A DNA stretch of 64,000 nt from an uncultured Bacteroidaceae bacterium. GTDB taxonomy: Bacteria > Bacteroidota > Bacteroidia > Bacteroidales > Bacteroidaceae. Below, in pieces: positions 1,095-63,659 of the stretch. The stretch's first letter is position 1. Each line of letters opens with the position of its first letter. The translations under genes were made by a program, and so were the position numbers. The notes under the pieces were generated by a model that saw only the letters and a list, made by a program, of their open reading frames with translations, made no database searches and was not told the DNA's origin. The stretch is from contig CAJOLZ010000010.1 in assembly GCA_905235575.1 (NCBI GenBank), positions 13,186 to 77,185 on the forward strand. Direction: 5' to 3'.

Positions 1095-1217
1095 GCGAAC
1101 ACCACGCAGCGTGTGGAACACCTTCGGATGACGCACCACGCTTTTCACTTTGACGCACCACGGTGCGAAGGCCTGCGCACCACGTTGCGACGCCCGTCGC
1201 AGCGTGGTGCGTTTTTG
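1095..1217 (+). repeat. 22-bp-periodic palindromic repeat element (locus A)
   Basis: ...GACGCACCACGCTTTTCACTTT|GACGCACCACGGTGCGAAGGCC|TGCGCACCACGTTGCGACGCCC|GTCGCAGCGTGGTGCGTTTTTG. A 16-bp stem (1176-1191 / 1196-1211) with a 4-nt loop is followed by T5. It lies in the divergent ABC/sppA spacer. Confidence 0.9.
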
Positions 1218-1303
1218 GACGTAACGGCGTCTGGTTTCGACTTCGCGACGGCGCGCATGCGCAGAAAAGGGTCGAGAAACTTGGTCGAAAGGAAAAGTCT
1301 TTG

Positions 1304-1311
1304 TATTTTTG
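1304..1311 (+). promoter_or_regulatory. candidate -7 promoter box (TATTTTTG) for sppA
   Basis: Matches TAnnTTTG and lies 54 nt upstream of the ATG at 1366. Confidence 0.4.
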
Positions 1312-1365
1312 TAACCAACTTGGACAAATTTTCAATTCAAAAATAACAAAACAACTAACAAAAAA

Positions 1366-3141
1366 ATGAAAAGTTTTCTGAAGTACACTCTGGCAACCAT
1401 CGTAGGCTTGTTCCTGTTCAGCATCGTTGCCACTATCATTACGATTGTCTCGGTTGCTGGCATGGTGGCTGACGAAGGTACATCCAAAATCGAGAAGAAT
1501 TCCATTCTGCGCATCTCGCTCAACGGCACTATGGTGGAACGCTCGGAGGGCGACGAGACCCCCGATGTGGTAGAGCTGATGATGGGCAACGAGACAAATG
1601 CCATCGCTCTTCAGGAGGCGCTGACGGCATTGGAGAATGCTGCAGAGAACAAGAATGTGATAGGTGTCTATCTGGAGGGTGGCGGACTTTCTGCTACGCC
1701 GGCAATGACAGAGGAACTGCGCAACGCCCTGGTGAAGTTCAAGGAGAGCGGCAAATGGGTGGTGGCTTACGGCGACCAGTTCTCGCGGAGTGCCTACTAT
1801 CTGGCTTCTGCGGCAGACTCGGTGTGGCTCAACCCCGAAGGAATGCTCGACTGGAGCGGTATGGCTACTCGGCTCTACTTCCTGAAGGGGGCGCTGGAGA
1901 AGATCGGCATCAAGATGCAAGTGTTCAAAGTGGGTACGTACAAGAGTGCTGTGGAGCCCTATATCTGCACGGAGATGAGCGACGCGAACCGCGAACAGGT
2001 GACGAGTTTCCTGAACAACATCTGGGCTACGATGCTGAAAGACGTGGCCGAGAGCCGCGGCATGGACACGGAGCGACTGAACACGATTGCCGACAGCCAG
2101 ACAATTCTGACCGACCCGACAGATGCGCAGAAGAACGGTCTGGTGGACGGTCTGCACTACATCGGCGAAGTGAAGCAGGCGCTGAAAGACATCGCAGGAC
2201 TGGGCGAGAAGGACAAGCTGAAGTTCGTCTCCATCAAAGATGTGGCTAATGCACAGACGCTGAAAGAAAAGATTAAAGAAGAGATTGCAGTATATTATGC
2301 TTACGGCGACATTGTTGACGAGGCGGGAAGCGGCTTGCAACAGACGCACCAGATTACGGGCAAGGGCATGACGAACGATTTGCAGAAGCTGCGCGAGGAC
2401 GAACGCGTGAAGGCTGTAGTCATCCGCGTGAACTCAGGCGGCGGCAGTGCCTACGCTTCGGAACAGATTTGGCGCGAAGTGGAGCAGCTGAAGGCTGTGA
2501 AGCCCGTAGTGATCTCGATGGGCGGCATGGCTGCCAGCGGCGGTTATTATATTTCGTGCGCTGCCAACCGTATTATTGCAGAGCCTACGACGTTGACGGG
2601 CAGCATCGGCATCTTCGGCATGATTGCTGACTACAGCGAACTGGCTACGAAGAAACTTGGTGTGACTTTCGACGGTGTGAAGACAAACAAACTGAGCGAC
2701 TTCGGTGCCATGGGTCGCCCGTTCAACGAGACGGAGGGGGAACTGATGCAGGCTTACGTGGAAAAGGGTTACGACTTGTTCACTCGCCGCGTGGCTGACG
2801 GCCGTGGCATGGAGCAGGACAGCGTGAAGGCGATTGCAGAAGGTCGTGTATGGACCGGCGAGCAGGCACTCGGACTGGGTCTGGTGGACGAACTGGGTGA
2901 CCTGAACGATGCCATCGCTGCTGCAGCCGAAGCTGCTGAGGTGGAGAAATACACAGTGGGACGCTATCCCGCAGCCTCGCCTTGGTATGTGAACATCATC
3001 GACAAGCAGAAGAACAATTATCTGGAAAGCCAGATGCGCTCGACCTTGGGCGAGTTCTACCCGATGTTCATGATGGTGAAGTCTGCCGAGAACCTCAATG
3101 GTCTGCAGGCTCGCATGCCTTTCTACATGGAAATCAAATAA
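1366..3141 (+). CDS. sppA: signal peptide peptidase SppA, 67K type
   Basis: 591-aa ORF with an N-terminal TM anchor (LATIVGLFLFSIVATIITIV) and two S49/ClpP-like halves (VAYGDQFSRSAYYLASAADSVWLNP; VISMGGMAASGGYYISCAANRIIAEP). Confidence 0.9.
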   Translation: MKSFLKYTLATIVGLFLFSIVATIITIVSVAGMVADEGTSKIEKNSILRISLNGTMVERSEGDETPDVVELMMGNETNAIALQEALTALENAAENKNVIGVYLEGGGLSATPAMTEELRNALVKFKESGKWVVAYGDQFSRSAYYLASAADSVWLNPEGMLDWSGMATRLYFLKGALEKIGIKMQVFKVGTYKSAVEPYICTEMSDANREQVTSFLNNIWATMLKDVAESRGMDTERLNTIADSQTILTDPTDAQKNGLVDGLHYIGEVKQALKDIAGLGEKDKLKFVSIKDVANAQTLKEKIKEEIAVYYAYGDIVDEAGSGLQQTHQITGKGMTNDLQKLREDERVKAVVIRVNSGGGSAYASEQIWREVEQLKAVKPVVISMGGMAASGGYYISCAANRIIAEPTTLTGSIGIFGMIADYSELATKKLGVTFDGVKTNKLSDFGAMGRPFNETEGELMQAYVEKGYDLFTRRVADGRGMEQDSVKAIAEGRVWTGEQALGLGLVDELGDLNDAIAAAAEAAEVEKYTVGRYPAASPWYVNIIDKQKNNYLESQMRSTLGEFYPMFMMVKSAENLNGLQARMPFYMEIK

Positions 3142-3164
3142 TAACACATTGATAAACAGCCCGC

Positions 3165-5040: not shown

Positions 5041-6117
5041 ATGGAAATATCAGAACTGGGCGAGTTCGGGCTCATACGCCGCCTCACCGAACAAATGCAG
5101 CCTCAAAACGAGACGACGCGACGCGGCGTGGGTGACGATTGCGCCGTAATTGCTCCCACCGAGGGAATGCAGACGCTCGTGACTACCGACATGCTCATGG
5201 AGGGCGTTCACTTCGACCTCACCTACGTGCCGCTGCATTATCTGGGTTACAAGTCCGTCATGGTGAACCTGAGCGACATCTATGCCATGAACGCGAAGCC
5301 CCGACAGATTACCGTCAGTCTGGCCATCAGCAAACGCTTCAATGTCGAAATGATGGAGGAACTCTACGAAGGGATGCGGCAGGCATGCGAGGAGCACCAC
5401 GTCGACATCGTGGGCGGCGACACCACCAGCAGCCTCACCGGACTGGCCATCAGCATCACTGCCATCGGCGAAGCACGCCCCGAGGACATCGTCTTCCGCA
5501 ACGGTGCGCACGAAACCGACCTCATCTGCGTGTCGGGCGACCTGGGTGCCGCCTACATGGGACTGCAACTGCTCGAGCGCGAAAAGGCCGTCTATAACCA
5601 GCAGTGGGCCAATGCACAGCGTTCAGGAAACCCACAGGAGATGGAGCGCCTCAAGGACGTGCAGCCCGACTTTGCCGGACACGAATACATCCTGGAACGG
5701 CAAATGAAGCCCCAGGCACGCCGAGACATCGTGGAGGCACTCGCCGAGGCTGGCATCCGTCCCACAAGCATGATTGACATCAGCGACGGGCTGAGCAGCG
5801 AACTCATCCACCTGTGCACACAGAGCCACACCGGTTGCCGCATCTACGAAGAGCGCATTCCGCTCGACTACCAGACGGCTTCGATGGCCGAGGAACTGAA
5901 CATGAACGTCACGACCTGCGCGCTGAACGGCGGCGAAGACTACGAACTGCTCTTCACCGTACCGCTGACCGACAACGAGCGCGTGGAGCAGGTGAAGGAC
6001 GTCCACATCATCGGATACATCACCAAAGAGTCGCTCGGACGCACGCTCATCTGCCGCGACGGAGTGGAGATGGAGCTGAAAGCGCAAGGGTGGAACCCAC
6101 TGAAAGAGAAGGAATAA
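5041..6117 (+). CDS. thiL: thiamine-monophosphate kinase
   Basis: 358-aa ORF starting ISELGEFGLIRRL...GDDCAVI, with AIR-synthase-like N and C domains (GGDTTSS). Starts 4 nt after the PNP stop. Confidence 0.85.
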   Translation: MEISELGEFGLIRRLTEQMQPQNETTRRGVGDDCAVIAPTEGMQTLVTTDMLMEGVHFDLTYVPLHYLGYKSVMVNLSDIYAMNAKPRQITVSLAISKRFNVEMMEELYEGMRQACEEHHVDIVGGDTTSSLTGLAISITAIGEARPEDIVFRNGAHETDLICVSGDLGAAYMGLQLLEREKAVYNQQWANAQRSGNPQEMERLKDVQPDFAGHEYILERQMKPQARRDIVEALAEAGIRPTSMIDISDGLSSELIHLCTQSHTGCRIYEERIPLDYQTASMAEELNMNVTTCALNGGEDYELLFTVPLTDNERVEQVKDVHIIGYITKESLGRTLICRDGVEMELKAQGWNPLKEKE

Positions 6118-6289: not shown

Positions 6290-6305
6290 GTCGCACCACG
6301 GTGCG
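6290..6305. repeat. solo unit of the 22-bp palindromic repeat family (locus N)
   Basis: GTCGCACCACGGTGCG matches the family core. It lies in the thiL/ComEA-like convergent spacer. Confidence 0.6.
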
Positions 6306-6441: not shown

Positions 6442-6478
6442 AAAAAGGGGCGAAAAACGTCATTTTTCGCCCCTTTTT
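6442..6478. terminator. bidirectional intrinsic terminator (serves the minus-strand ComEA-like gene)
   Basis: AAAAAGGGGCGAAAAA-cgtca-TTTTTCGCCCCTTTTT forms a perfect 11-bp GC-anchored stem, extended by the A5/T5 arms. It sits 68 nt downstream of the 6546 stop on the minus strand. Confidence 0.75.
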
Positions 6479-10758: not shown

Positions 10759-10765
10759 TCAGATT

Positions 10766-10851
10766 AAAAACGCACCGTGCTGCGACGGGCATCGCACCGT
10801 GTTGCGACAGCTGTCGCAGCGCGGTGCGTCGTACGTCATAGCGTGGTACGT
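10766..10851 (-). repeat. 22-bp-periodic palindromic repeat element (locus B)
   Basis: AAAAACGCACCGTGCTGCGACGGGCATCGCACCGTGTTGCGACAGCTGTCGCAGCGCGGTGCGTCG... It fills the whole spacer between the VanZ stop (10758) and the CYTH stop (10853). Read on the minus strand it ends in GCGTTTTT. Confidence 0.85.
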
Positions 10852-10852
10852 A

Positions 10853-11332
10853 TCAGAGTGTATCGCGCCAAAGGCGGAAAGGATTGCGGCGCAGGTGGGA
10901 ATTGTAGAAGCGGCGGTCGCCTGTCACTTCGCGCCCAATGAAAGGAGGTTTTTCGAACGGCTCGTCCTCGCTGTGGAGCTCCACCTCGGCCATTATGAGC
11001 CCCTCGTTGTCGCCATAGAACTCGTCCACCTCGAAGATGTGATTTCCGCTGCGCACCAGATGGCGCGTCTTGTCGATGATGCCGGGCTCGCAGATGGCAA
11101 GCAACTCGAGTGCGTCCGAAGCCGCAATCTCCGTCTCGAACTCGTAGCGTGCCAATCCTGCGCGGTCGCTGGGTCCCTTGATGGTCAGATAGCCCCGGTC
11201 GTCTCTCAGACGCACGCGAACCGTCTTGCCGTTGCCCGTCAGGATGTAGCCCTGACGAATGCGACTGCTGTTGTAGACCAAGTGACGGAACTCACCGTCG
11301 ACGAGGAACTTACGTTCTATCTCGAGCGCCAT
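10853..11332 (-). CDS. CYTH domain protein (triphosphate tunnel metalloenzyme)
   Basis: 159-aa ORF beginning MALEIERKFLV (the CYTH ExExK signature), with downstream RVRL and EVE motifs. Confidence 0.8.
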   Translation of the reverse strand: MALEIERKFLVDGEFRHLVYNSSRIRQGYILTGNGKTVRVRLRDDRGYLTIKGPSDRAGLARYEFETEIAASDALELLAICEPGIIDKTRHLVRSGNHIFEVDEFYGDNEGLIMAEVELHSEDEPFEKPPFIGREVTGDRRFYNSHLRRNPFRLWRDTL

Positions 11333-15632: not shown

Positions 15633-15730
15633 GTGCGCTTTTCGACGCACCGTGGTCCGACAGCCGTCGCAGCGTGGTGCGACGGGCAACGCAGCGTGGT
15701 GCGACACGTGTCGCAACGCGGTGCGTTTCT
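15633..15730 (+). repeat. 22-bp-periodic palindromic repeat element (locus C)
   Basis: Four 22-nt units: GACGCACCGTGGTCCGACAGCC|GTCGCAGCGTGGTGCGACGGGC|AACGCAGCGTGGTGCGACACGT|GTCGCAACGCGGTGCGTTTCTC. It lies directly downstream of the M20 gene. Confidence 0.85.
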
Positions 15731-15751
15731 CAGTGTTTCAAAGCAGGAAAC

Positions 15752-20764: not shown

Positions 20765-22299
20765 TAGGCAGTCAGTATTTTCGTGATTTCGTCAGCATAG
20801 TTCTCGATATCGCCTGCGCCAAGTGTGACGAGGACGTCGAAGCCACCCTGCCGCACGATGTCGAGCACTTCGTCCTTGCGACACATGCAGCGGTCGATGC
20901 CCGGGCGCAGGTTGTCATAGATGAGTTTACTGGTAACACCCGGTATCGGTTCTTCGCGTGCCGGGTATATATCGACCAGTGCGACATCGTCGGCCAGCGA
21001 GAGCGCCTCGGCAAACTCGCGGTAGAAGTCGCGTGTACGGGTATAGAGGTGCGGCTGGAATATCACTTTTATCCGTCTATCCTCGTAAAGTTGGCGTATG
21101 CTGATCAGGCTCTGGCGTATCTCGGCCGGATGGTGGGCATAGTCGCTCAGATAGGCCATGCGGTCGGTTCTCACATGGAAGTCGAATCTGCGGTCCACGC
21201 CTCTGAACGAAGCCATGGCACTGCGAATCTCGTCTTCTCCGGCACCGGCCACCTGAGCCAACGCCATGGCTGCTATTCCGTTCTCGATGTTGACAGCCAC
21301 GGGCACACCGAGCTGTATGTCGGCGATATTACCGAACGGAGAGACGAGGTCGAAGACAATCTCGCCATGGCCGATACGGATATGTTCGGCATGAAAATCG
21401 CCCTGGTCCTGGCTGTATGTATAGGTGGTCACACCATCTTGCGTGGCTGGCTGCATCTTCAGCCCCGTGTGCAGGATGAGGAAACCGCCGGGCTGGATGA
21501 GACTGCTGTAGTGGCGGAAACTTTCCAGATATGCTTCTTCGGTGCCGTAGATATCCAGATGGTCGGCATCGGTGGCTGTGATGACCGATGCATAGGGTGA
21601 AAGCCAGTGGAAGGAGCGGTCGAACTCGTCGGCCTCGATGACCACATAAGGACTGTGCTGACTCAGAATATAATTGGTGCCGTAGTTCTTGGTGATTCCA
21701 CCGAGGAAGGCGTTGCAGTCCACATGGCTCTGGTGCAGCAGATGGGCCGCCATGCTGCTGGTGGTGGTCTTTCCGTGGGTGCCTGCCACACAGAGGCCTT
21801 TCAGCGACCGGGTGAGCAGCCCCAGCACCTGGGCACGCTTCTGAATCTCGAACCCGTTCTGGCGGAAATATACCAACTCGGCATGTTCGGCCGGAATGGC
21901 CGGTGTGTAGATGACGAGCGTCTGTTCGCGCTCCAGGCATGCCGTGGGAATCAGCCCTACATTCTCCTCGTAGTGGATGTCGGCGCCTTCCTGACGGAGT
22001 TTCTCCGTGAGTTCGCTGGGGGTTTTGTCATAGCCTCCCACGACGATGCCCTGGTGCAGGAAATATCGGGCAAGGGCACTCATGCCGATGCCGCCGATGC
22101 CAACGAAATAGACAGCCTTTATTCCGAGACTTGCGTCGGGGGCTGTTTTGTCGCACTGTGGTGCGTCGTCTGTCGCAACGTGGTGCGACGCCTGTCGCAG
22201 CGTGGTGCGTTGCCCGTCGCAGCGTGGTGCGTTTTCGAGGGGACTGACGGGCTGTTGCTCCGCCGGGCGTTCCGGGTTTATGGTCGAGAGATGTGACAT
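20764..22299 (-). CDS. murC: UDP-N-acetylmuramate--L-alanine ligase, with a roughly 60-aa N-terminal extension partly encoded by a repeat element
   Basis: Mur ligase motifs YFVGIGGIGMSALARYF and VAGTHGKTTTSSM. The ATG at 22299 lies 4 nt after the murG stop. There is no in-frame ATG/GTG/TTG between it and the Rossmann motif. Residues ~22-50 (ENAPRCDGQRTTLRQASHHVATDDAPQCD) come from repeat locus D. Confidence 0.85.
   Translation of the reverse strand: MSHLSTINPERPAEQQPVSPLENAPRCDGQRTTLRQASHHVATDDAPQCDKTAPDASLGIKAVYFVGIGGIGMSALARYFLHQGIVVGGYDKTPSELTEKLRQEGADIHYEENVGLIPTACLEREQTLVIYTPAIPAEHAELVYFRQNGFEIQKRAQVLGLLTRSLKGLCVAGTHGKTTTSSMAAHLLHQSHVDCNAFLGGITKNYGTNYILSQHSPYVVIEADEFDRSFHWLSPYASVITATDADHLDIYGTEEAYLESFRHYSSLIQPGGFLILHTGLKMQPATQDGVTTYTYSQDQGDFHAEHIRIGHGEIVFDLVSPFGNIADIQLGVPVAVNIENGIAAMALAQVAGAGEDEIRSAMASFRGVDRRFDFHVRTDRMAYLSDYAHHPAEIRQSLISIRQLYEDRRIKVIFQPHLYTRTRDFYREFAEALSLADDVALVDIYPAREEPIPGVTSKLIYDNLRPGIDRCMCRKDEVLDIVRQGGFDVLVTLGAGDIENYADEITKILTA
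22150..22237 (+). repeat. 22-bp-periodic palindromic repeat element (locus D), inside the murC 5' coding region
   Basis: Four direct 22-nt units: GTCGCACTGTGGTGCGTCGTCT|GTCGCAACGTGGTGCGACGCCT|GTCGCAGCGTGGTGCGTTGCCC|GTCGCAGCGTGGTGCGTTTTCG. The T-rich end is on the strand antisense to the dcw transcript. Confidence 0.9.
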
Positions 22300-33807: not shown

Positions 33808-33816
33808 AGAAGTGTT

Positions 33817-33905
33817 AAAAACGCACCGTGCTGCGACGGGCAACGCAGCGTGGTGCGACGGCTGTCGCAACGTGGTGCGTCAGGCTGAAAACCGTGGTGC
33901 GTTTT
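33817..33905. repeat. 22-bp-periodic palindromic repeat element (locus E)
   Basis: AAAAACGCACCGTGCTGCGACGGGCAACGCAGCGTGGTGCGACGGCTGTCGCAACGTGGTGCGTCAGGCTGAAAACCGTGGTGCGTTTTCC. It has an A-run on the left and a T-run on the right, and begins 10 nt after the PPIase stop. Confidence 0.85.
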
Positions 33906-38364: not shown

Positions 38365-38537
38365 GTCCTGATTGCGCCATAATCCGGAATCGGTCTTTAG
38401 CATTTATGTCAGAGTGATATTTGTTTTCGAGCAGATTGTAAGTAGCGTCTTCGAAACGATTGTTGCAATGGCATAAAAAGACTTCGAGAAAAGAGAATAG
38501 CCACTTTTGTCGGTCAAACGACTGATTTTGAATAACT

Positions 38538-38630
38538 GAAAACGCACCATGTTGCGACGCGTGTCGCAGCGTGGTGCGTTGGCTTTCGCAGCACAGTGCG
38601 TCGTGCAACGCAGCGCAGTGTGACAACGCA
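38538..38630 (-). repeat. 22-bp-periodic palindromic repeat element (locus F)
   Basis: GAAAACGCACCATGTTGCGACGCGTGTCGCAGCGTGGTGCGTTGGCTTTCGCAGCACAGTGCGTCGTGCAACGCAGCGCAGTGTGACAACGCA. It includes a 17-bp hairpin, 38542-38558 / 38563-38579. Confidence 0.85.
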
Positions 38631-38750: not shown

Positions 38751-39863
38751 ATGCAGTCCAACGTCGTTCTACTGATATTTGCCTGTTGTGCCACCGCCCA
38801 ATTCATAGCCGCCAGTGTGATGGCGGTCTATTCGCGCCACCGTGTGCAATATCTGGCGTTGCCATGGGTGAACGGCATCTTCGCTTTCATCCTGCTGGGA
38901 GAGGCCATTTTCTACCAGTCCATCGCCACCTTTCCGCCGGGCATTCTGAACCCCGTCATCCTGCTGTCGTTCCTTGCCGGAATCTTTCTCCAGAGCATCT
39001 ATCCGCTGGGCATCCCGCTGCCGGGTTTCCTGCAATGGGGCCGCATGTGGCAATACGCCTCGCCCATACTGATATTGCTGGGCGTATATCTGCTGACGCT
39101 GCTTTGGAACGGCGGCATCGTGTTTCTGATGACGTGGGAAGAGCTCGTGGACCATCTGCTGAGTGTCGATATCGTGTGCCGTCTGCTGGCAGTGGTGCTG
39201 AGCATCTACTATATCGTGAACATCTTCCGTCTGCCCCGTGCAAAGGCGCGCAGCACCTACGTTCCCAAATATCTTCTGGCTTACAGCACGGCACTGGGCC
39301 TCTCGGTGGTGTTCTATCTCTACGTGGTGCTGTTCTACGACATACGTCTGCTGATGGTCTATCACGTCATCTTCACGCTGCTGAACCTCTATCTGGTATT
39401 CCGCACACTGGAGACCATCGCGCTGGAACTGCCCCATCCCTCCATCGAAATCGTAGAGGAAGAACCGACGGAGGTGCCTGAGCCTGAGAACGAAGAGGGC
39501 GACTTCAACGAGGCCAACCTGCAGCGTTTCCACCGCATGGAATACTGGATGCAGAACAATCCGACGGAATGGATGGAGAGCTCGTTCGGGCGCGACCGCC
39601 TGTGCAAGGAGGTGGGCATCAACCGCCACCTGATGCTGCAGTGCGTACGCAGCCAGGGATACAACAACGTGCACGACTACATCAACCGCTACCGACTGGA
39701 GGCACTGAAACGACTCATACGTCAGGGCGAGGTGCGAAACGTGGCCGACTGCACCATCACCGGCCTGGGTACCACGAAAACGGTGCGCTCGTGCTTCTTC
39801 AAATTCGAGAGCATGACGCTCGACGACTATCTGCAAGAGCAGTCCCGACCGGCATCGAGCTGA
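38751..39863 (+). CDS. membrane-embedded AraC-family (HTH) transcriptional regulator
   Basis: About 230 aa of multi-pass TM segments are followed by an acidic linker and a C-terminal AraC-type HTH (FGRDRLCKEVGINRHLMLQCVRSQGYNNVHDYINRYRLEALKRLI). Confidence 0.75.
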   Translation: MQSNVVLLIFACCATAQFIAASVMAVYSRHRVQYLALPWVNGIFAFILLGEAIFYQSIATFPPGILNPVILLSFLAGIFLQSIYPLGIPLPGFLQWGRMWQYASPILILLGVYLLTLLWNGGIVFLMTWEELVDHLLSVDIVCRLLAVVLSIYYIVNIFRLPRAKARSTYVPKYLLAYSTALGLSVVFYLYVVLFYDIRLLMVYHVIFTLLNLYLVFRTLETIALELPHPSIEIVEEEPTEVPEPENEEGDFNEANLQRFHRMEYWMQNNPTEWMESSFGRDRLCKEVGINRHLMLQCVRSQGYNNVHDYINRYRLEALKRLIRQGEVRNVADCTITGLGTTKTVRSCFFKFESMTLDDYLQEQSRPASS

Positions 39864-39930
39864 GACACACCACGCTTTTACGTGTGACGCACCGTGGTGC
39901 GCTGCGTTGCCTGTCGAACCACGGTACGTT
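39864..39930 (+). repeat. 22-bp-periodic palindromic repeat element (locus G, 3 units)
   Basis: GACACACCACGCTTTTACGTGT|GACGCACCGTGGTGCGCTGCGT|TGCCTGTCGAACCACGGTACGT. The first unit resembles the first unit of locus A. It starts 1 nt after the stop at 39863. Confidence 0.8.
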
Positions 39931-40010
39931 AAACCGTCCCCCGTGAAGCATCTTTTCACGCGCGTGCGAACTTTTTCTAATAAATACTTGTGTGTTTGAC
40001 GCTTTTGTCG

Positions 40011-47965: not shown

Positions 47966-47967
47966 CA

Positions 47968-48052
47968 GGAAACGCACCGTGGTGCGACAGGCATCGCAAC
48001 GTGGTGCGACGGCCGTCGCAGCGTGCTGCGTCACACGTCGTTCCACAGCACC
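47968..48052 (-). repeat. 22-bp-periodic palindromic repeat element (locus H)
   Basis: GGAAACGCACCGTGGTGCGACAGGCATCGCAACGTGGTGCGACGGCCGTCGCAGCGTGCTGCGTCACACGTCGTTCCACAGCACC. It starts 3 nt after the M23 stop. Confidence 0.85.
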
Positions 48053-48071
48053 TTTTCCCGACCTCTCATGA

Positions 48072-48095: not shown

Positions 48096-48131
48096 CTACC
48101 CTCATTGCTTGTGTATTTGGGAAAATATCCG

Positions 48132-50128: not shown

Positions 50129-50168
50129 CACACGAATCGGTCGTCAGACCGACAGACGCGAACATCAA

Positions 50169-50200: not shown

Positions 50201-50263
50201 ATGGGGTCGTCATGTTTTCATGCTTCTCAAGTTCATGCATTCAGGAGTCGAAGTGGAGATCTT

Positions 50264-50347
50264 AAAAACGCACCGTGGTTCGACAGGCGTCGCAGCACGC
50301 TGCGACAGCCTTCGCAACGTGGTGCGACAAGCGTAGAACCACGGTGG
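50264..50347 (-). repeat. 22-bp-periodic palindromic repeat element (locus I)
   Basis: AAAAACGCACCGTGGTTCGACAGGCGTCGCAGCACGCTGCGACAGCCTTCGCAACGTGGTGCGACAAGCGTAGAACCACGGTGG. It abuts the stop (50349) of the minus-strand GH-like gene. Read on the minus strand it ends in GCGTTTTT. Confidence 0.85.
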
Positions 50348-50348
50348 A

Positions 50349-52247
50349 TTATTTCAGCCAGCGAAAACGGAAGTTGAAACGACGGTTGGGAGCCGTGTCA
50401 CCAGTGGTGCAGAGCGAAATTATGCTGTCCAAGTCACTCGGATTGTCAGCCCACTTGAAGTCGAAGTCGATTCGGTTTCCATCGGCACCAAGCAACTTGC
50501 GCGGAACGGCTATTTCCATCTGATTGCCGTTTGCAGCATAAGCCAGCTCGGCCGTCTGTGTCCACTGGCTGCTGCCAGCATCGTACTGCATGAGCGTGGT
50601 GCGGCGGCCATCCACGACACGGTTGTTGATGACGAATTCATAACCCTCCCATCCGGTGGAGACATTCTGGTCCGCATCGATGAAGAGCATCATCCAGCAG
50701 GGGTCAGTGCTGGGCGTGAGGGGCTTGGCGGTCTGGACATAGAAATAGACGTTACGTTTGTCCACCGCCACACGCGAAACGACAATATCGTTGCGACCGC
50801 TGCTGTCGCGATAGTGCAGATTGCCATAGCCGTCGTGGTCGCGGTGCGTTACATCGCCCTTTGTATCCTCATAATCAACCATTTCCGCATCCCAATCGAC
50901 GAAGTTCCCGTCGACCTTGATATTGCGGAAGCCTCGATTCAGGGGGATTTCGTGCACGCCCTTGTAGCGCCGGATATTCTGCACCATCTGCATGTAATAA
51001 TTGTCGGTGAAACCGCCCTTCATGGGGGCTATGGTGCGGCAGAACTCGGCATTATACTGGTCCACGAAATAGAAGGGGTTTGCGCGGCCCAGAAAGGTCG
51101 TGGGGCCGGGGAGGGTACCCGACGGATCGGTGCCGCTCTTATACTTGCCTGCGGTCCACTCGTTCCAGTCGTTCAGATAGACGAAATCGGGGTCAGCAGC
51201 CAAGGCCTCGTCCCATCGGTCCTGAAAATATATGCCGTAGGCCGTAGGGTTGTCCACCTCCTTTTCCAACCAGGGCACATAGGCTTTGGCCGGCATGTCG
51301 TGGTCGTCAAGCTGGGGTTCCTTGGTGTCTCTGCGCCAACTTTTCCCGACGATGCTTATGGGGTGCTGCGCCGGTGTCACGGCCATTTCCTCCAGTCGAC
51401 CTTCGTGGCGAGAGGCCAGTTCCTGAGGCGAGAGAGCACCCACCTTCGGGTCGTGCAGCTCGTAGCCGAAACTCCAGTTATCCTCGGTGCCCACGAACCG
51501 CTTGCCTGCCCACATATAGTATCCCCACCACATGTTGCGGAGCGTGAAAAATTGCTTCACCTCAGGCGAATAGTCGTTCTTGTCCATGCCGCCACCTACG
51601 TGGTTGGCATCCACATCGGGGTTCGCATTGTAGAGCAGGAGTGGCTTGCCGTGCCAGTAAAACCAGAGGTCCTGATAACGCGACGTGGCGTAGTAACGTT
51701 CGTAAAGCATCTGCACCACCCACGTCGTAGGCCCGTTGAATGCCCAGAAACAGAACTGGGGCACGCGGTTGCCCTCTGCCTTCATCTCAGTCATCGTCTG
51801 GAAGAGAACATCCCACTCGTCCCAATAGTGCACGGCATTCGTAACGTCCAGGATGAGCACGTCCACCCCCGCGTCGGATAGCATCATCAGGTCGTGGCGG
51901 ATGACGTATCGGTCCTGCGAAAGAAAGTATCCATATTCGGGTTCGCCCCAGTGATAGGAGCCGCCGGTCCATGCCTTACTCTCGTTATCGAGACGCGCAT
52001 TCGGGTCGGCATTCAGCACCTTCGTCACGTCGGCCTTGTATGGATTCCCGTCGTGCAGATTCTGCGTATGCCAAGTGATATAGAAGATGCCCACGGTGCG
52101 CGGTTTGTCGGTCTTCAGCGGAGCCTCCTCGTACGTAGGCATGACACGGCCCAAGCCATCGGTCGCAACCCATGTGTCGGCATTTTGTGCCATGATATTG
52201 ATGGTGCAGAAGAGAAAGAGCAAGGAGACAGGAAAAAGTTTTTTCAT
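50349..52247 (-). CDS. secreted glycoside-hydrolase-like protein (TIM-barrel-like N-domain plus C-terminal beta-sandwich). Family not resolved.
   Basis: It has a signal peptide (MKKLFPVSLLFLFCTINIMAQ). The N-terminal region FYITWH...YHWGEPEYGYFLSQDRYVIRHDLMMLSDAGVDVLILDVTN is reminiscent of uncharacterised GH-like families. The C-terminal VDGNFVDW...FIDADQN...FDFKWADN resembles a carbohydrate-binding module. The start is trimmed to the ATG at 52247. Confidence 0.5.
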   Translation of the reverse strand: MKKLFPVSLLFLFCTINIMAQNADTWVATDGLGRVMPTYEEAPLKTDKPRTVGIFYITWHTQNLHDGNPYKADVTKVLNADPNARLDNESKAWTGGSYHWGEPEYGYFLSQDRYVIRHDLMMLSDAGVDVLILDVTNAVHYWDEWDVLFQTMTEMKAEGNRVPQFCFWAFNGPTTWVVQMLYERYYATSRYQDLWFYWHGKPLLLYNANPDVDANHVGGGMDKNDYSPEVKQFFTLRNMWWGYYMWAGKRFVGTEDNWSFGYELHDPKVGALSPQELASRHEGRLEEMAVTPAQHPISIVGKSWRRDTKEPQLDDHDMPAKAYVPWLEKEVDNPTAYGIYFQDRWDEALAADPDFVYLNDWNEWTAGKYKSGTDPSGTLPGPTTFLGRANPFYFVDQYNAEFCRTIAPMKGGFTDNYYMQMVQNIRRYKGVHEIPLNRGFRNIKVDGNFVDWDAEMVDYEDTKGDVTHRDHDGYGNLHYRDSSGRNDIVVSRVAVDKRNVYFYVQTAKPLTPSTDPCWMMLFIDADQNVSTGWEGYEFVINNRVVDGRRTTLMQYDAGSSQWTQTAELAYAANGNQMEIAVPRKLLGADGNRIDFDFKWADNPSDLDSIISLCTTGDTAPNRRFNFRFRWLK

Positions 52248-55188: not shown

Positions 55189-55237
55189 CCTCCACCCCGA
55201 CCTTGTATCAGCGTGGCCTAAGGGAACAATTTCCGAG

Positions 55238-55321
55238 GCACTGCGTTGCGACGCTTGACGCACCACGTTGCGAAGGCTGTCGCAGCGTGCTGCGACGCCT
55301 GTCGAACCACGGTGCGTTTTT
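55238..55321 (+). repeat. 22-bp-periodic palindromic repeat element (locus J)
   Basis: ...GTTGCGACGCTT|GACGCACCACGTTGCGAAGGCT|GTCGCAGCGTGCTGCGACGCCT|GTCGAACCACGGTGCGTTTTTC. The T-run end points away from the rmuC stop. Confidence 0.85.
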
Positions 55322-55387
55322 CAGCATGGCAAACAGCCATCGCGCTACATGGACTTGAGGGAGGGCGATACGGCTCGGGACGAATCA

Positions 55388-57743: not shown

Positions 57744-57832
57744 AAAAAACGCACCATGTTGCGACAGCCTACGCACCACGTTGCGACAGGCGTCGCAGCG
57801 TGGTGCGTTTCATGTTGCAGCGTGGTGCATGT
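57744..57832 (-). repeat. 22-bp-periodic palindromic repeat element (locus K)
   Basis: AAAAAACGCACCATGTTGCGACAGCCTACGCACCACGTTGCGACAGGCGTCGCAGCGTGGTGCGTTTCATGTTGCAGCGTGGTGCATG. It lies 9 nt downstream of the rnr stop on the minus strand and ends in GCGTTTTTT in that direction. The segment 57766-57787 is the exact reverse complement of 60241-60262. Confidence 0.9.
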
Positions 57833-60094: not shown

Positions 60095-60196
60095 CGATTT
60101 CGGAAGCAGAAAAACAAAACTTGTTTTGATTTTTCTCGGCCATGCGTGAGAGCGTATGGTTTGAGCGACAAATCGGAGAGGCGAAAGGCTGTTTCT

Positions 60197-60284
60197 GACG
60201 CACCGCAGTGCGACGCTTGTCGCACCACGGTGCGAAGGCCGTCGCAACGTGGTGCGTAGGCTGTCGCAGCGTGCTGCGTTTTTC
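60197..60284 (+). repeat. 22-bp-periodic palindromic repeat element (locus L)
   Basis: GACGCACCGCAGTGCGACGCTT|GTCGCACCACGGTGCGAAGGCC|GTCGCAACGTGGTGCGTAGGCT|GTCGCAGCGTGCTGCGTTTTTC. It lies in the divergent rnr/SDR spacer. Confidence 0.9.
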
Positions 60285-60479
60285 AGCGCACCTCAGAAGT
60301 CTGTTTTTCCTGCGCGTACCTATATAATATATAAGCGCAGTGCACATCGCGGCATGAATTGGAGGGCGGAAAGCAAAAAAAGGAAAGTGCACGAGGCTTT
60401 TATGACAGAAAAAGCGTAACTTAGCATCGCAAAACCGCAGAGACAGATACAAACAGAAGTAACAAACTACCCAACCGAT

Positions 60480-61526: not shown

Positions 61527-61547
61527 ACAGAACCATCATAAACGACA

Positions 61548-61586
61548 AACGGGTCTCCCTGAGAGTGAGGAGACCCGTTCTTTTTT
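61548..61586 (+). terminator. intrinsic terminator of the SDR gene
   Basis: AACGGGTCTCC-ctgagagtga-GGAGACCCGTT forms an 11-bp stem followed by CTTTTTT. Confidence 0.75.
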
Positions 61587-61735
61587 CGACTTGCAGAAGG
61601 CACTACCACGATTTTTCTATGCAAAAGTAGCGCTTCAAAAAGGTAAATCCATTACGATTACGGAACAAATAATTGTGAATTTAATGCTTTTATTCCAAAA
61701 AAATTGTAATTTTGTGTCGCCCTAAAGGATTGAAC

Positions 61736-61750
61736 TATTGAAAATCAAAC
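61736..61750 (+). repeat. TATTGAWAATCAAAC intergenic motif, copy 2
   Basis: The sequence is TATTGAAAATCAAAC followed by CATTGAG. It matches copy 1 (6395-6415) at 18 of 21 positions. Confidence 0.5.
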
Positions 61751-61871
61751 CATTGAGATTACAGCAGTGAGAAGCCTGAAAATCGTTTCAAACAGCCCCG
61801 TTTCGCTTTGCAAAAAGGCGAAATGTACATAACTTCGCACTGCTTTTCAGGATAAAATTGACCCAAAAGAC

Positions 61872-63530
61872 ATGAAAAAAGGAAACTATTCAGCACATGG
61901 GCTCACTATGTTTGGAAGAATCTTCCTGATTCTGACATGCAGCATCCTGCCTACCAAACGCCTTGTGGCCAACGATTCCATCGACAGTCTCTATCGCGAG
62001 GCACTCACCACAAACCATTTCGACTACAAGCAGGCCAACCGCCTGATGCTGATGCTCGACGTGGAAGGTGTGACGGACAGCCTAATGACCTTCGACAGCA
62101 ATACCGACAAACAGGAGATGATGGCATCGGTACATTTCTATGTATCAACCTATTACTTCGAAGTGGCACAGCGCATGACGGCAGCCATAAAAGCCGCACA
62201 GCGCGCCGAAGCGATTGCACGCGAAGCCTGCGACACCCCTATGATTGTGGAAGCACTCTCGACACAATCGGTGGCGGCCATACGTACGGGGCAGATGGAG
62301 AGCGCCCTCAGGACGGCGAAGGAGGAGCTGCGCATTGACCAACTGACGGGCGACATAGCCAACCTTTCGCGCGCCTACAACATACTGGCCGCGCTGAGTC
62401 TGCAGGGCAACCGACTGGACGACGCCGAAAAATACATCCTGAAAGCCATTGAGATGGAACGCTGCGTGGAGGACAGTTCGCACCTGAGCATGCGCTACGG
62501 GATTGCAACGGAGATATTCACGAAGCGTGGCGAATATGACCGCGCATACGAGTTCGGCGAGCGTGCCTACGAGATGGACCGCAGTTCGGGCGACAAGGTG
62601 AAGGCGGCACGCAGGCTTTCGCAGATAAGTGACATCTATATGGCGCAGGGCAAATATAGCGAGGCCGAGACGTTCTGCCAGCGCGCCATTGCCGCGTTGA
62701 GGGAGGCCGAGGAACTGACGTCGCTTTCAATCACGCTGAAACAGCTGGGGCAAATCTATCTGAAACAGAACCTGAAACAAAAGGCGTACACAACGCTGAA
62801 GGAATGTGAGGACATCTGCCGCGCCACCGAGCACCATTACATCCTGCAACAGGTGTGCCGCATGCAGGCCGAGGCGCTCGGCAACGACAATCCACGACAG
62901 GCGCTCGCCTATCTGCAGGAGGCACTGCAACTGAGCGATTCGCTGCACACCGAGAGAGCCGAACAGCTGGCCAACGAGATACGCGAGGGACAATACGACG
63001 AACTGGCCGCGCAGCCAGCCGAGGAAAAATCGCGCTCTACGGCACGGGCGGTGGTCATCATCGTGCTGCTCGACCTGCTGGCACTGACCTCCATTTGGAT
63101 TTCCTTCCGCCGAAAGACCGGACGTAAGATGATGGCGGAGGCCGAAATGCTGGTGGAAAGACAGGGAGAGCACATAGAAAGAATAGAGGATCAGGACTTG
63201 GAATTCCTGGTAAAAGTGACGGAACTGTACGAAAAGAGCCTGGACAAACAGCGACTGAACGTCGACGAGCTTTCTGCAGCCATGAACATGAGCCGTTCGC
63301 AGTTCACACGCCGCATCGTGGCCACCACCGGCTCCACCCCGAACAACTACTTCAACCGCCTGCGACTGGAGAAAGCGGCGCGCCTGCTCAAGAACTCAGA
63401 ACGCTCCATCAACTCCGTCGCCTACGAATGCGGCTTCGAAGACACGCCCTACTTCTGCAACCTCTTCAAGAAATACTTCAAGGTGACGCCCATGCAATAT
63501 CGCGTGATGCCCGAGAGGGAGAAGAAATAG
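61872..63530 (+). CDS. TPR-repeat sensor / AraC-family HTH transcriptional regulator (single TM between domains)
   Basis: 552-aa ORF with an N-terminal signal/anchor, TPR-like repeats, a TM (AVVIIVLLDLLALTSIWISF) and a C-terminal AraC HTH (LSAAMNMSRSQFTRRIVATTGSTPNNYFNRLRLEKAARLL...SVAYECGFEDTPYFCNLFKKYFKVTP). Confidence 0.8.
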   Translation: MKKGNYSAHGLTMFGRIFLILTCSILPTKRLVANDSIDSLYREALTTNHFDYKQANRLMLMLDVEGVTDSLMTFDSNTDKQEMMASVHFYVSTYYFEVAQRMTAAIKAAQRAEAIAREACDTPMIVEALSTQSVAAIRTGQMESALRTAKEELRIDQLTGDIANLSRAYNILAALSLQGNRLDDAEKYILKAIEMERCVEDSSHLSMRYGIATEIFTKRGEYDRAYEFGERAYEMDRSSGDKVKAARRLSQISDIYMAQGKYSEAETFCQRAIAALREAEELTSLSITLKQLGQIYLKQNLKQKAYTTLKECEDICRATEHHYILQQVCRMQAEALGNDNPRQALAYLQEALQLSDSLHTERAEQLANEIREGQYDELAAQPAEEKSRSTARAVVIIVLLDLLALTSIWISFRRKTGRKMMAEAEMLVERQGEHIERIEDQDLEFLVKVTELYEKSLDKQRLNVDELSAAMNMSRSQFTRRIVATTGSTPNNYFNRLRLEKAARLLKNSERSINSVAYECGFEDTPYFCNLFKKYFKVTPMQYRVMPEREKK

Positions 63531-63586
63531 GAAGATGATGGTAAATAAAGCCGACACTTATTTGATTTCATTCCGAAGAAGACATG

Positions 63587-63659
63587 CAAAAAACGCGTCA
63601 CAGCGTGCTTCGCAGTTTGACGCACCGTGGTGCGACGGCCGTCGCACCACGGTGCATTT
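63587..63659 (-). repeat. 22-bp-periodic palindromic repeat element (locus M, about 3 units)
   Basis: AAAAAACGCGTCACAGCGTGCTTCGCAGTTTGACGCACCGTGGTGCGACGGCCGTCGCACCACGGTGCATTT. Confidence 0.8.

What the first reader, a model, noticed from the sequence alone, without database searches (positions are those of the whole stretch)
1095..63659. Dispersed ~88-bp GC-rich palindromic element made of four 22-bp units: 13 copies plus one solo unit in 64 kb
The core GTCGCARCGTGGTGCG (reverse complement CGCACCACGYTGCGAC) recurs with a strict 22-bp period. It forms blocks of about 3-4 units (67-98 bp; locus A, at 123 bp, also carries degenerate upstream units) at 1095-1217, 10766-10851, 15633-15730, 22150-22237, 33817-33905, 38538-38630, 39864-39930, 47968-48052, 50264-50347, 55238-55321, 57744-57832, 60197-60284 and 63587-63659. 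A solo unit sits at 6290-6305. The blocks look like copies of one composite element rather than random arrays, because specific units are shared between loci. Units 1152-1173 and 60219-60240 match at 21 of 22 positions. Unit 57766-57787 is the exact reverse complement of 60241-60262. Units 1130-1151 and 39864-39885 share the unusual CACGCTTTT variant. One end of the element is nearly always GGTGCGTTTTT (AAAAACGCACC on the other strand). Neighbouring units form TGCGAC-N4-GTCGCA hairpins or 15-17-bp stems. The core has no stop codon in any of the six frames. This explains the many spurious track ORFs carrying HHVAT, AAWCD, PSQRGA, RTTLR and APRCD peptides. In six loci the T-run end points away from the stop codon of the adjacent gene (CYTH, M20, PPIase, GH-like, rmuC, rnr), like an intrinsic terminator. 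Other copies are in the opposite orientation or sit in divergent promoter regions. I cannot assign it to a known element class. It behaves like a REP/BIME- or MITE-like family with unusually high local density in a housekeeping region.
Basis: seen in the sequence. Interest (0 to 1): 0.75.

Follow-up and report, generated by a model that had tools for sequence, protein, structure and literature searches.

The report
Dense REP-like palindromic repeat family
An uncultured Bacteroidales gut or rumen bacterium carries one copy about every 5 kb of a roughly 88-bp element made of four exactly phased 22-bp palindromic units, a lineage-specific relative of the REP/BIME repeats of E. coli that is real and undescribed but not a new kind of biology.

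Summary
The core gives 33 hits against 0.17 expected. Units are 14-bp near-palindromes, CGCA-n-C-RY-G-n-TGCG, spaced exactly 22 bp centre to centre whatever their orientation.

There are 13 arrays plus one solo unit, all intergenic. Eleven arrays align without gaps as one discrete element: an A-run followed by four units.

The density is genome-wide, not local. Three other regions of the same organism carry 8 more arrays in about 33 kb. Syntenic DNA of relatives (75-83% identity, about 134 kb) has none. Phage, plasmid and Rfam searches found nothing. JGI metagenomes gave one related array. Two other organisms carry related 22-bp palindromic arrays.

The element is best read as a DNA-level, REP/BIME- or REPIN-like non-autonomous repeat. 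Both strands fold equally well, and I found no covariation and no strand bias.

It lacks the GTAG and CGTC tags, target-site duplications and IS-type ends. No RAYT gene lies in the roughly 97 kb I could see, so how it spreads is inferred, not shown.

Five of its six loci lie between convergent genes, and arrays also sit in divergent promoter regions and inside the dcw operon.

Verdict: a new variant of a known kind, of moderate interest.

The parts
1095..1218 (-). Array with four units (14-mers at 1198, 1176, 1154 and a half-unit at 1132) plus degenerate extra units at 1095-1127. The T-run lies on the + strand at 1212-1216. It sits in the divergent region between a minus-strand ABC-transporter-like gene (start about 1040) and sppA (1366, +).
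6290..6305 (.). Solo perfect-palindrome unit GTCGCACCACGGTGCG, in the spacer after thiL and upstream of a unique bidirectional terminator at 6442-6478.
10764..10853 (+). Four-unit element with the A-run on the + strand. It fills the whole 94-bp spacer between the convergent VanZ-like (+) and CYTH (-) genes, 1 nt from the CYTH stop codon.
15633..15732 (-). Four-unit element (L L L P) lying 22 nt after the M20 peptidase stop codon. A separate unique 19-bp-stem terminator follows at 15756-15797.
22149..22238 (-). Four-unit element inside the dcw operon between murG and murC. All four units share one orientation. On the mRNA-sense strand it has no long hairpin (z = -1.4) and no T-run. Public gene calls extend murC spuriously to 511 aa through it.
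33815..33905 (+). Four-unit element with an A-run on the left and a T-run on the right, between the convergent PPIase (+) gene and a 683-aa (-) gene.
38536..38630 (+). Four-unit element with a decayed 3' half, between codirectional + genes. Its T-run is on the antisense strand.
39862..39932 (-). Degenerate copy lacking one unit, starting 0 nt after the stop codon of the 370-aa gene.
47967..48055 (+). Four-unit element 2 nt after the M23 peptidase stop codon and about 110 bp upstream of gyrB. Its T-run is antisense to both genes. An unrelated small hairpin follows.
50261..50351 (+). Four-unit element 1 nt from the stop codon of a 632-aa (-) gene. gyrB has its own unique terminator at 50168-50195. 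This copy is 91% identical over 85 bp to the reverse complement of 55235-55323 (97-98% over the 71-74-bp BLAST hit).
55235..55323 (-). Four-unit element 49 nt after the rmuC stop codon, between convergent genes. It is the near-identical inverted twin of 50261-50351.
57744..57832 (+). Four-unit element (L L R R) that folds as one 33-bp nested hairpin (DNA -34.5 kcal/mol, z = -6.7). It lies 8 nt after the rnr stop codon, with its T-run in sense for rnr.
60196..60285 (-). Four-unit element in the divergent region between the rnr (-) start and the epimerase (+) start.
63587..63673 (+). Truncated, partly decayed copy (A-run, one decayed unit, two good units) lying 56 nt after the AraC/TPR regulator stop codon.

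Best explanation
This is a lineage-specific family of non-autonomous, REP/BIME- or REPIN-like repeat elements that acts at the DNA level. The copied unit is a discrete segment of about 85-93 bp: an A-run (a T-run on the other strand) followed by four 22-bp units. Each unit is a 14-18-bp near-palindrome, (GT)CGCA-n-C-RY-G-n-TGCG(AC), plus a 4-bp linker, so dyad axes recur every 11 bp. Shown: the whole element has been copied to many intergenic sites across the genome of one uncultured Bacteroidales species, and it is absent from syntenic DNA of its nearest available relatives. Inferred: copies spread through single-stranded hairpin intermediates handled by a trans-acting HUH/Y1 (RAYT-type) enzyme encoded elsewhere in the genome. 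Subclass 2.6 RAYTs of Bacteroidetes are known to be flanked by atypical, non-GTAG hairpins. I put about 0.35 on that specific enzyme and about 0.6 on the broader claim of a selfish, copy-and-paste repeat family. Also inferred: as a by-product, a copy supplies a very stable hairpin followed by a U-run on one strand, so in the right orientation it can end or stabilise transcripts, and harmful orientations and structures are removed by selection.
For: The element is discrete. Eleven window copies and L140 align without gaps from the A-run through four units.

Whole-element copying is visible. The copy at 50261-50351 and the reverse complement of 55235-55323 are 91% identical over 85 bp and 97-98% over the 71-74-bp BLAST hit, against a family mean of 72%. 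Identical 22-mers are shared between 57744 and 60197.

Density is genome-wide: 13 arrays in 64 kb; 4 in 20 kb in the lepA-rnf region (L143); 3 in 10.6 kb (L147); and 1 in L140 (2 kb, from a sister sample, so same-organism identity is inferred). That makes 21 arrays in about 97 kb.

Thirteen of the 22 intergenic regions of at least 95 bp in the window carry an array, and no array is in coding DNA.

The family is lineage-specific. nhmmer finds 0 hits in about 134 kb of syntenic or related loci (L130-L136, L139, L141, L142; RmuC 66-81% amino-acid identity, rnr 83% nucleotide identity). In L133 the rnr 3' end has an ordinary unique terminator instead.

The signal sits in DNA rather than in a strand-specific RNA. 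Fold energies are equal on both strands. There is no within-element covariation for any unit-to-unit pairing. The A-run lies on the + strand 7 times and on the - strand 6 times. Single-stranded DNA hairpins score z = -4 to -6.7.

Selection on context is suggested by one case. The only copy inside an essential operon (murG-murC) has all units in one orientation, no significant hairpin on the sense strand (z = -1.4) and an antisense T-run.

There is precedent. Bacteroidetes RAYT subclass 2.6 genes are flanked by non-GTAG hairpins of 24-30 nt that recur elsewhere in the genome (PMC6006769).

Assembly artefact is excluded. The same arrays appear in independent assemblies from five samples, built with different tools.
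Against: No transposase of any kind is linked to the family. A regex for the HUH and Y motifs finds nothing in the window or in any related locus, and the rest of the genome could not be reached.

No insertion polymorphism within the species could be observed, because all available contigs are 99.98-100% identical.

The GT[AG]G foot that RAYTs use is absent, and no consistent target-site duplication is present.

Mean pairwise identity is only 72%, with palindrome arms near-invariant and linkers free. That pattern fits host-level constraint such as protein binding as well as it fits replicative selection.

Positions 5 and 10 of the 14-mer vary independently rather than covarying (complementary in 15 of 44 units), which does not favour a strict hairpin requirement.
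Confidence: 0.6

Rival explanations
1. The arrays are phased arrays of duplex binding sites for a dimeric DNA-binding protein, such as a nucleoid-associated, topology-related or insulator-like factor. Four dyad-symmetric 14-bp sites exactly two helical turns apart would place four dimers on one face of the helix. The repeats would then be maintained by the host for that function, much as BIME-2 binds gyrase and RIB elements bind IHF in E. coli.
For: Spacing is strictly 22 bp whatever the unit orientation. The half-site positions CGCA, C6/G9 and TGCG are conserved at 86-98%, while position 5 of each half-site varies independently, as expected for a non-contacted base. There is no hairpin covariation and no strand asymmetry. 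Unit number is constant at four. Arrays occur in divergent promoter regions as well as at 3' ends.
Against: No candidate protein is known. One array per 4.6 kb with 72% mean identity and many decayed fourth units looks more like a decaying repeat population than like maintained operators. Close relatives lack the arrays completely, so any such function would be dispensable or very young. This reading does not exclude a mobile origin.
Confidence: 0.15
2. The arrays are primarily intrinsic transcription terminators or 3'-end stabilisers. On this reading a modular terminator cassette has been duplicated to many gene ends because it is useful there.
For: Most copies carry GGTGCG followed by T4-T7 on one strand, directly after a very stable GC-rich hairpin. 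All six convergent spacers of at least 50 bp are occupied, five by arrays and one by the solo unit, against 2 of 7 divergent spacers. Six window arrays lie within 0-9 nt of a stop codon. The copy inside the dcw operon is in the harmless orientation.
Against: Orientation at the informative codirectional sites shows no bias: 1 to 2 sense against about 4 antisense. Four of 21 arrays lie in divergent promoter regions. Three arrays sit next to an independent canonical hairpin terminator at 15756-15797, 50168-50195 and about 48075-48100. The difference between 3'-containing and divergent spacers (11 of 15 against 2 of 7) is only suggestive. Relatives use ordinary unique terminators at the same genes.
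Confidence: 0.1
3. The arrays are minisatellites produced locally by replication slippage of a 22-bp unit, rather than copies of a dispersed element.
For: Another organism (L146) has a single head-to-tail 12-copy 22-bp array of a related unit, with a second, unrelated 22-bp tandem repeat beside it. P. gingivalis BrickBuilt has a variable 23-nt minisatellite (PMC4596501).
Against: In this organism the unit number is fixed at four. Units occur in both orientations within an array, which slippage cannot produce. The same A-run terminus and the same positional unit variants recur at unlinked loci.
Confidence: 0.05
4. The arrays are a structured RNA, either a small RNA or a cis-regulatory element.
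For: Predicted folds are very stable, with z down to -10.8.
Against: There is no Rfam match even at E = 5 apart from noise. Both strands fold equally well. There is no compensatory covariation. Orientation relative to genes is random, and copies occur in every intergenic context.
Confidence: 0.03

Closest known systems
REP / BIME elements of Enterobacteriaceae and REPIN-RAYT systems of Pseudomonas
   Same: Short GC-rich imperfect palindromes that are strictly extragenic and number in the hundreds per genome. They cluster in regularly spaced composites containing both orientations, favour spacers that contain a 3' end, lie close to stop codons, form long hairpins when adjacent units are inverted, and are lineage-specific.
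   Different: There is no GT[AG]G foot. Units are 22 bp with exact phasing rather than about 35-40 bp with defined linker types. The composite has a fixed four-unit length and a polar A/T-run end. Orientation within a composite is not strictly alternating. No RAYT has been found so far. The host is Bacteroidales, where such high-copy families have not been described in the literature I could search.
Atypical hairpins flanking subclass 2.6 RAYTs (Bertels group 5) in Bacteroidetes (Quentin et al. 2018, PMC6006769)
   Same: Same phylum. They are non-GTAG hairpins of 24-30 nt with 8-10-bp stems and 3-nt loops, and copies occur elsewhere in the genome.
   Different: There is no sequence similarity to the listed examples. 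Those were described as RAYT-flanking motifs, not as phased four-unit composites at about 1 per 5 kb. Association with a RAYT is untested here.
CGTC-tagged REPs (Di Nocera et al. 2013, PMC3733652)
   Same: Many units are preceded by C/TGTC. This REP superfamily has no dedicated transposase and is reported from Bacteroidetes among other phyla. Head-to-head dimers occur.
   Different: Here GTC is paired inside the palindrome rather than forming an unpaired head. The stem does not start with A-T pairs, the loop is 2-6 nt rather than 4-5, there is no CCA tail, and clustering is the rule rather than the exception.
BrickBuilt MITE of Porphyromonas gingivalis (Klein et al. 2015, PMC4596501)
   Same: [quoted passage not shown]
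   Different: [quoted passage not shown] The element here has no leader or tail, exactly four units and roughly 30 times the density. A single IS5-like GAGACCTTCGGA lies beside one array only.
BOX elements of Streptococcus pneumoniae, and Correia and dRS3 elements of Neisseria
   Same: Modular composite intergenic repeats that form hairpins and can affect transcript ends and stability.
   Different: The modules, sizes and sequences are unrelated. Correia elements have terminal inverted repeats and a TA target-site duplication.

Membership tests
REP (GTAG-type, RAYT-mobilised) | A short (20-40 nt) imperfect palindrome that is high-copy and extragenic | tested here: met
   Units are 14-18-bp near-palindromes. 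There are 21 arrays of about 4 units in about 97 kb, all intergenic.
REP (GTAG-type, RAYT-mobilised) | A conserved 5' GT[AG]G tetranucleotide at the foot of the hairpin | tested here: not met
   The foot is (C/T)GTC-GCA for internal units or AAAA for unit 1. No GTAG or GTGG is present.
REP (GTAG-type, RAYT-mobilised) | A single-copy RAYT (Y1 HUH transposase) gene flanked by the repeats (a REPtron) | not testable with these tools
   No HUH or Y motif is found in any six-frame ORF of the window or of loci L126-L142; L143-L148 were fetched after that scan and were not checked.
BIME | REPs at regular spacing in alternating orientation, joined by conserved linker motifs | tested here: inconclusive
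   Spacing is perfectly regular at 22 bp. Orientation patterns vary (LLLL, LLRR, LRRR, PRD and others) and the 4-bp linkers are not conserved.
CGTC-tagged REP families 1-4 | An unpaired CGTC head, an 8-9-bp stem starting with A-T pairs, a 4-5-nt loop and a CCA-like tail | tested here: not met
   GTC is part of the palindrome, the stem is CGCA..., and there is no CCA tail (compared with the description in PMC3733652).
MITE | Terminal inverted repeats matching an IS, plus target-site duplications | tested here: not met
   The flanks of 11 copies show no consistent direct repeat. An IS5-like terminal repeat is found beside one copy only. No IS is present in the window.
BrickBuilt (P. gingivalis) | A 23-nt direct-repeat core flanked by leader and tail segments with IS5-type terminal inverted repeats | tested here: not met
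   The flanks are unique at every locus, the period is 22 bp, and orientations are mixed.
Intrinsic (Rho-independent) terminator | A GC-rich hairpin immediately followed by a U-run, located at the 3' end of a transcription unit, and ending transcripts | tested here: inconclusive
   The sequence criterion is met on one strand for most copies. The location criterion is met for only some copies, and orientation at codirectional sites is unbiased. Actual termination cannot be tested here.
CRISPR array | Repeats of 23-47 bp separated by unique spacers of similar length, usually with cas genes | tested here: not met
   The repeat is 14 bp with an 8-bp linker, there are four units per locus, and there are 13 loci in 64 kb.
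Any Rfam RNA family | A match at the family's gathering score | tested here: not met
   Only tRNA-Glu passes. At E values up to 5 the arrays give only noise hits such as mir-5366 and Srn266.

The most novel reading that the evidence does not exclude
The arrays may not be ordinary selfish REPs. They could be a new class of phased, dyad-symmetric DNA element: four 14-bp palindromes exactly two helical turns apart, occupying about 60% of sizeable intergenic spacers. Such an element would be bound cooperatively by a lineage-specific protein, for example to insulate transcription units or organise the nucleoid, or would be spread by an as yet unknown, non-RAYT mechanism that builds 22-bp units. Related 22-bp palindromic arrays of other lengths in other Bacteroidales (L129 with at least 6 units, L146 with 12 units plus a second, unrelated 22-bp tandem repeat beside it) and the 22-23-nt repeats of P. 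gingivalis hint at a clade-wide process that generates 22-bp units.
Probability: 0.15. Interest if true: 0.7.

Novelty: new variant of a known kind. Interest (0 to 1): 0.45.

Why it matters
High-copy REP-like families are textbook features of Proteobacteria. In Bacteroidales the literature I could search describes only a few low-copy MITE-like repeats. Here about 2% of the DNA, and most sizeable intergenic spacers, of an uncultured gut or rumen Bacteroidales species consist of one repeat with an unusually regular architecture.

Practical consequences:
- The arrays are open in all six frames and generate spurious ORFs and N-terminal extensions in public annotation. One example is murC called as 511 aa; others are the 60-170-aa 'proteins' recovered from the protein databases.
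- Identical 22-bp units are a plausible cause of short-read assembly breaks in such genomes, although I did not test this.

Scientific consequences:
- The family offers a compact system for asking how REP-type composites with fixed spacing are built and spread when the canonical GTAG foot is missing.
- It also allows a test of whether Bacteroidetes subclass 2.6 RAYTs really mobilise such elements.

Tried and rejected
This spent the only genome scan, so the host genome and any RAYT could not be reached.
2. A metagenome-contig scan with a 36-bp dimer pattern found only 2 loci. L128 is an unrelated 43-bp tandem repeat. L129 is a related array.
3. Viral contigs gave chance single hits for the 16-mer and none for the dimer pattern. 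Plasmid and phage BLAST gave no match.
4. A protein-word search with a synthetic translation of the arrays gave one hit, P0121, which led to L140. A profile of real array translations searched against 1.84 billion proteins worked better, giving 17 hits.
5. Exact-protein look-ups failed for two ORFs. The ORF at 56-790 proved spurious; 61872-63530 probably has a different start codon, because L137's gene call corresponds to 61908.
6. I tested covariation for the pairings U1:U4, U2:U3 and adjacent units, and found none above permutation.
7. I tested identity against genomic distance as a check for local spread or gene conversion. Spearman correlation was -0.09, p = 0.24.
8. I searched the flanks for target-site duplications and found nothing consistent. 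An 'AAAAC' after unit 4 recurs in some copies but appears to be part of a hybrid fourth unit.
9. I searched for an IS5/BrickBuilt-type terminal repeat. There is one exact GAGACCTTCGGA beside array 33817 only.
10. I considered and rejected the following:
- DNA uptake sequences, because there are no coding-region copies and the arrays are phased.
- Integron attC sites, because the flanking genes are housekeeping genes in both orientations.
- parS, matS or Noc-type sites, because the arrays are far too dense.
- Bacteroides invertons, because nothing lies between the repeats.
- CRISPR.
11. The PINSR 188-bp repeat of Prevotella intermedia is unrelated.

Full report

Yes. The core GTCGCARCGTGGTGCG, allowing up to 2 mismatches, occurs 33 times. 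Dinucleotide-preserving shuffles give 0.17 on average and never more than 2. Tandem Repeats Finder reports period-22 arrays at the stated loci.

Each unit is a 14-bp near-palindrome, extended to 18 bp by GT...AC, followed by a 4-bp linker. Dyad axes therefore recur every 11 bp.

An nhmmer profile built from the aligned copies recovers exactly the 13 arrays and the solo unit, and nothing else in the window. It finds nothing in 967 kb of unrelated control loci.

**2. Anatomy**

When each array is oriented with its A-run on the left, eleven window copies and one copy from another contig align without a single gap through four units. The structure is A3-6, then CGCACC-RY-GnTGCG-AC-NNNN-GT and so on, ending with the fourth 14-mer.

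This is therefore a discrete element of about 85-93 bp, not a variable array. Three copies also end in a T-run (33817, L143:10091, L143:13775).

Conservation is position-specific. CGCA, C6/G9 and TGCG are conserved at 86-98%. Position 5 and its symmetric partner, position 10, vary independently and are complementary in only 15 of 44 units. The centre is GT or AC, and the linkers vary freely.

Units with R at position 5 mostly have a GT centre, and units with Y at position 10 mostly have an AC centre. They therefore behave as two orientations of one slightly asymmetric unit. The order of orientations differs between copies (LLLL, LLRR, LRRR, PRD and others).

Mean pairwise identity of whole elements is 72%. 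One pair, 50261-50351 and the reverse complement of 55235-55323, is 91% identical over 85 bp and 97-98% identical over the 71-74-bp BLAST hit. Identity does not fall with genomic distance.

**3. Context**

Pfam scans and public gene calls give a housekeeping gene map that includes the dcw/mur cluster, ftsAZ, recO, gyrB, gcpE, rmuC and rnr. All arrays are intergenic, and intergenic DNA is about 10% of the window.

The real gene there is a minus-strand ABC-transporter-like gene starting near 1040; this rests on my reading of its translation, since I ran no family search on it. Array 1095 therefore lies in a divergent region.

Among spacers of at least 50 bp, occupancy is as follows:

| Spacer type | Occupied | Total |
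|---|---|---|
| Convergent | 5 arrays plus the solo unit | 6 |
| Codirectional | 6 arrays | 9 |
| Divergent | 2 arrays | 7 |

Six arrays begin or end within 0-9 nt of a stop codon. One lies inside the dcw operon between murG and murC.

**4. Is it local, and whose genome is it?**

RmuC and MurG look-ups show the window belongs to an uncultured organism assembled independently from several samples. Those contigs are 99.95-100% identical to the window, repeats included, which rules out an assembly artefact. The nearest named relatives are 'Bacteroidaceae/Prevotellaceae bacterium' MAGs at 60-66% RmuC identity.

To sample other parts of the genome I exploited the fact that the arrays are open in all frames. 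I built a profile from their translations and searched it against 1.84 billion proteins. This returned 17 small spurious 'proteins'. Their contigs gave two new regions from the same samples:

- the lepA-rnf region (L143/L144/L145), with 4 arrays in 20 kb
- a region with an RND efflux pump and a fucosidase (L147/L148), with 3 arrays in 10.6 kb

Adding one array in L140 gives 21 arrays in about 97 kb, or one per 4.6 kb. L140 comes from a sister sample, so assigning it to the same organism is an inference. The density is therefore genome-wide, and about 500-750 copies would be expected in a 2.5-3.5-Mb genome. Two of the new copies lie in divergent promoter regions.

**5. Distribution in relatives**

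Syntenic or related contigs contain no copy by pattern search or by nhmmer. These include the following, about 134 kb in total:

- L130 (RmuC 75% amino-acid identity)
- L133-L136 (RmuC 66%)
- L139 (RmuC 81%)
- L141 and L142 (rnr 83% nucleotide identity)

Where this organism has an array after rnr, L133 has an ordinary unique bidirectional terminator.

Phage and plasmid collections contain nothing. JGI metagenomes contain only one related locus. Rfam has no family for it.

Related but distinct arrays do exist elsewhere:

- L129 has at least six units of CGCAACGTGTTGCG at 22-bp spacing.
- L146, from a different organism with GC 0.595, has a single head-to-tail 12-copy array of GATGCAGCGCGCTGCGTTGGCG.
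- L139 has four 22-bp units of a different sequence, AAAACAGCGTGCCGTGTG, in both orientations and with A/T-runs, at the very position after rmuC where this genome has its array.

**6. DNA or RNA, hairpin or duplex?**

Both strands fold equally well: mean RNA minimum free energy is about -48 kcal/mol for each orientation class. As single-stranded DNA the elements score z = -4 to -6.7.

The variable positions give no support to any particular unit-to-unit pairing beyond permutation. The A-run lies on the + strand 7 times and on the - strand 6 times.

These results argue against a strand-specific structured RNA and for a DNA-level palindrome. They do not separate a hairpin recognised as single-stranded DNA from a duplex site bound by a dimeric protein.

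**7. The terminator idea**

Most copies carry GGTGCG followed by T4-T7 directly after a strong stem on one strand, so in that orientation they look like intrinsic terminators.

At the informative codirectional sites I count 1 to 2 sense and about 4 antisense. Four of 21 arrays are in divergent regions. Three arrays sit beside an independent canonical terminator, at 15756-15797, 50168-50195 and about 48075-48100.

One observation does suggest selection on context. The murG-murC copy is the only one whose four units all share one orientation. On the mRNA-sense strand it has no significant hairpin (z = -1.4) and no T-run. This is a single case.

**8. Most likely explanation**

This is a lineage-specific, non-autonomous repeat family of the REP/BIME/REPIN kind. 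The whole four-unit element has been copied to many intergenic sites of one species.

- **Shown:** it is discrete, shows whole-element copies, has genome-wide density, is restricted to intergenic DNA, is absent from the nearest available relatives, and has the character of a DNA-level palindrome.
- **Inferred:** it spreads through single-stranded hairpin intermediates handled by a trans-acting HUH/Y1 enzyme. The precedent is the subclass 2.6 RAYTs of Bacteroidetes, whose genes are flanked by atypical non-GTAG hairpins of 24-30 nt that recur in the genome (PMC6006769).

No such gene lies in the DNA I could scan, and the rest of the genome was out of reach. I give the general reading 0.6 and the RAYT step about 0.35. 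Termination or 3' stabilisation is a plausible by-product rather than the reason the element exists.

The main rival is a host-maintained array of duplex protein-binding sites. It is favoured by the exact two-turn phasing and the independent half-site variation, and I give it 0.15.

**9. Comparison with known families**

The element works like REP/BIME elements but fails their defining sequence test, because it has no GT[AG]G foot.

It is not a CGTC-tagged REP as defined in PMC3733652. GTC is paired inside the palindrome, the stem does not start with A-T pairs, and there is no CCA tail.

It is not a MITE, because it has no consistent target-site duplication and no IS-type ends.

It is not BrickBuilt, which has 23-nt direct repeats with leader and tail segments and IS5-type ends, at about 19 copies per genome (PMC4596501). 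It is not PINSR, a 188-bp repeat (PMC4755523).

I found no description of such a family in the searchable literature.

**10. Verdict**

The element is real and was carefully observed. It is best filed as a new variant of a known kind, a REP/BIME-like dispersed palindromic repeat. Its architecture is unusual (four exactly phased 22-bp units plus an A-run) and its host clade is one where such families are essentially undescribed. Interest is moderate at 0.45. How it spreads, and any host function, remain open.

Noticed in passing
window 37633-38114: A 243-bp tandem duplication (2.0 copies, 89% identical) lies inside the gene for a dockerin-domain protein (37078-38364, +). It is probably a repeated protein domain.
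   Followed up: no
window 1-1040 (- strand) versus 56-790 (+): The long + strand ORF at 56-790 is spurious and has no Pfam hit or database record. The opposite strand, on my reading of its translation, encodes the N-terminus of an ABC-transporter-like membrane protein that starts near 1040 and runs off the window; I ran no family search on it.
   Followed up: partly
window 20764-22299 (-); L126 11124-12659: Public gene calls extend murC to 511 aa by reading through the repeat array. The Mur ligase domains start at about residue 63. The arrays also produce free-standing spurious 'proteins' of 60-170 aa in public protein databases (P0121, P0133-P0138, P0143, P0145, P0148).
   Followed up: partly
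window 15756-15797, 50168-50195, 6442-6478, 61547-61580: Unique, canonical long-stem terminators (12-19-bp stems; several carry A- and T-runs on both sides) coexist with the repeat family. Two of them lie within 26-70 bp of an array.
   Followed up: partly
L139 2400-2527: In a relative (RmuC 81%), the spacer after rmuC holds four 22-bp units of a different sequence, AAAACAGCGTGCCGTGTG, in both orientations. The middle two form an A-run/stem/T-run hairpin. This is an analogous element at the same site and shares only the heptamer CAGCGTG with the family studied here.
   Followed up: partly
L133 about 5300-5450 and about 18790-18880 (also L134 and L136): The 66% relative has its own small repeat family built on AAATGCGACGTGTAGTTT in inverted pairs. 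It occurs once between convergent genes and once in a divergent region.
   Followed up: no
L146 10121-10384 and 10404-10464: A different organism (GC 0.595) has a 12-copy head-to-tail 22-bp array of a related palindromic unit. It is followed 20 bp later by 2.8 copies of an unrelated G-rich repeat that is also 22 bp long, GGTTGGGAGGGGGCTCGCTGAC.
   Followed up: partly
L141 4668-6878 and 8613-9227; L142: A relative carries a full rnr gene plus a second 204-aa ORF, about 1.7 kb downstream, that duplicates the C-terminal RNB/S1 part of RNase R. Just upstream of that ORF lies a 75-bp fragment matching the rmuC 3' end. This looks like a local rearrangement.
   Followed up: no
window 33905-33916: An exact GAGACCTTCGGA on the minus strand lies immediately beside array 33817. 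It closely resembles the IS5-type terminal inverted repeat reported for P. gingivalis BrickBuilt and ISPg1. It occurs only once, so it may be chance or a relic.
   Followed up: partly
L140 680-1160: The array in this 2-kb contig sits next to a markedly AT-rich stretch, unlike the roughly 55% GC of the window. This may be an island boundary or foreign DNA.
   Followed up: no
L128 7320-7575: The metagenome pattern scan also hit an unrelated tandem repeat of about 43 bp that contains CGCATCACGCTGCG, in a contig with GC 0.625. It is not part of this family.
   Followed up: no
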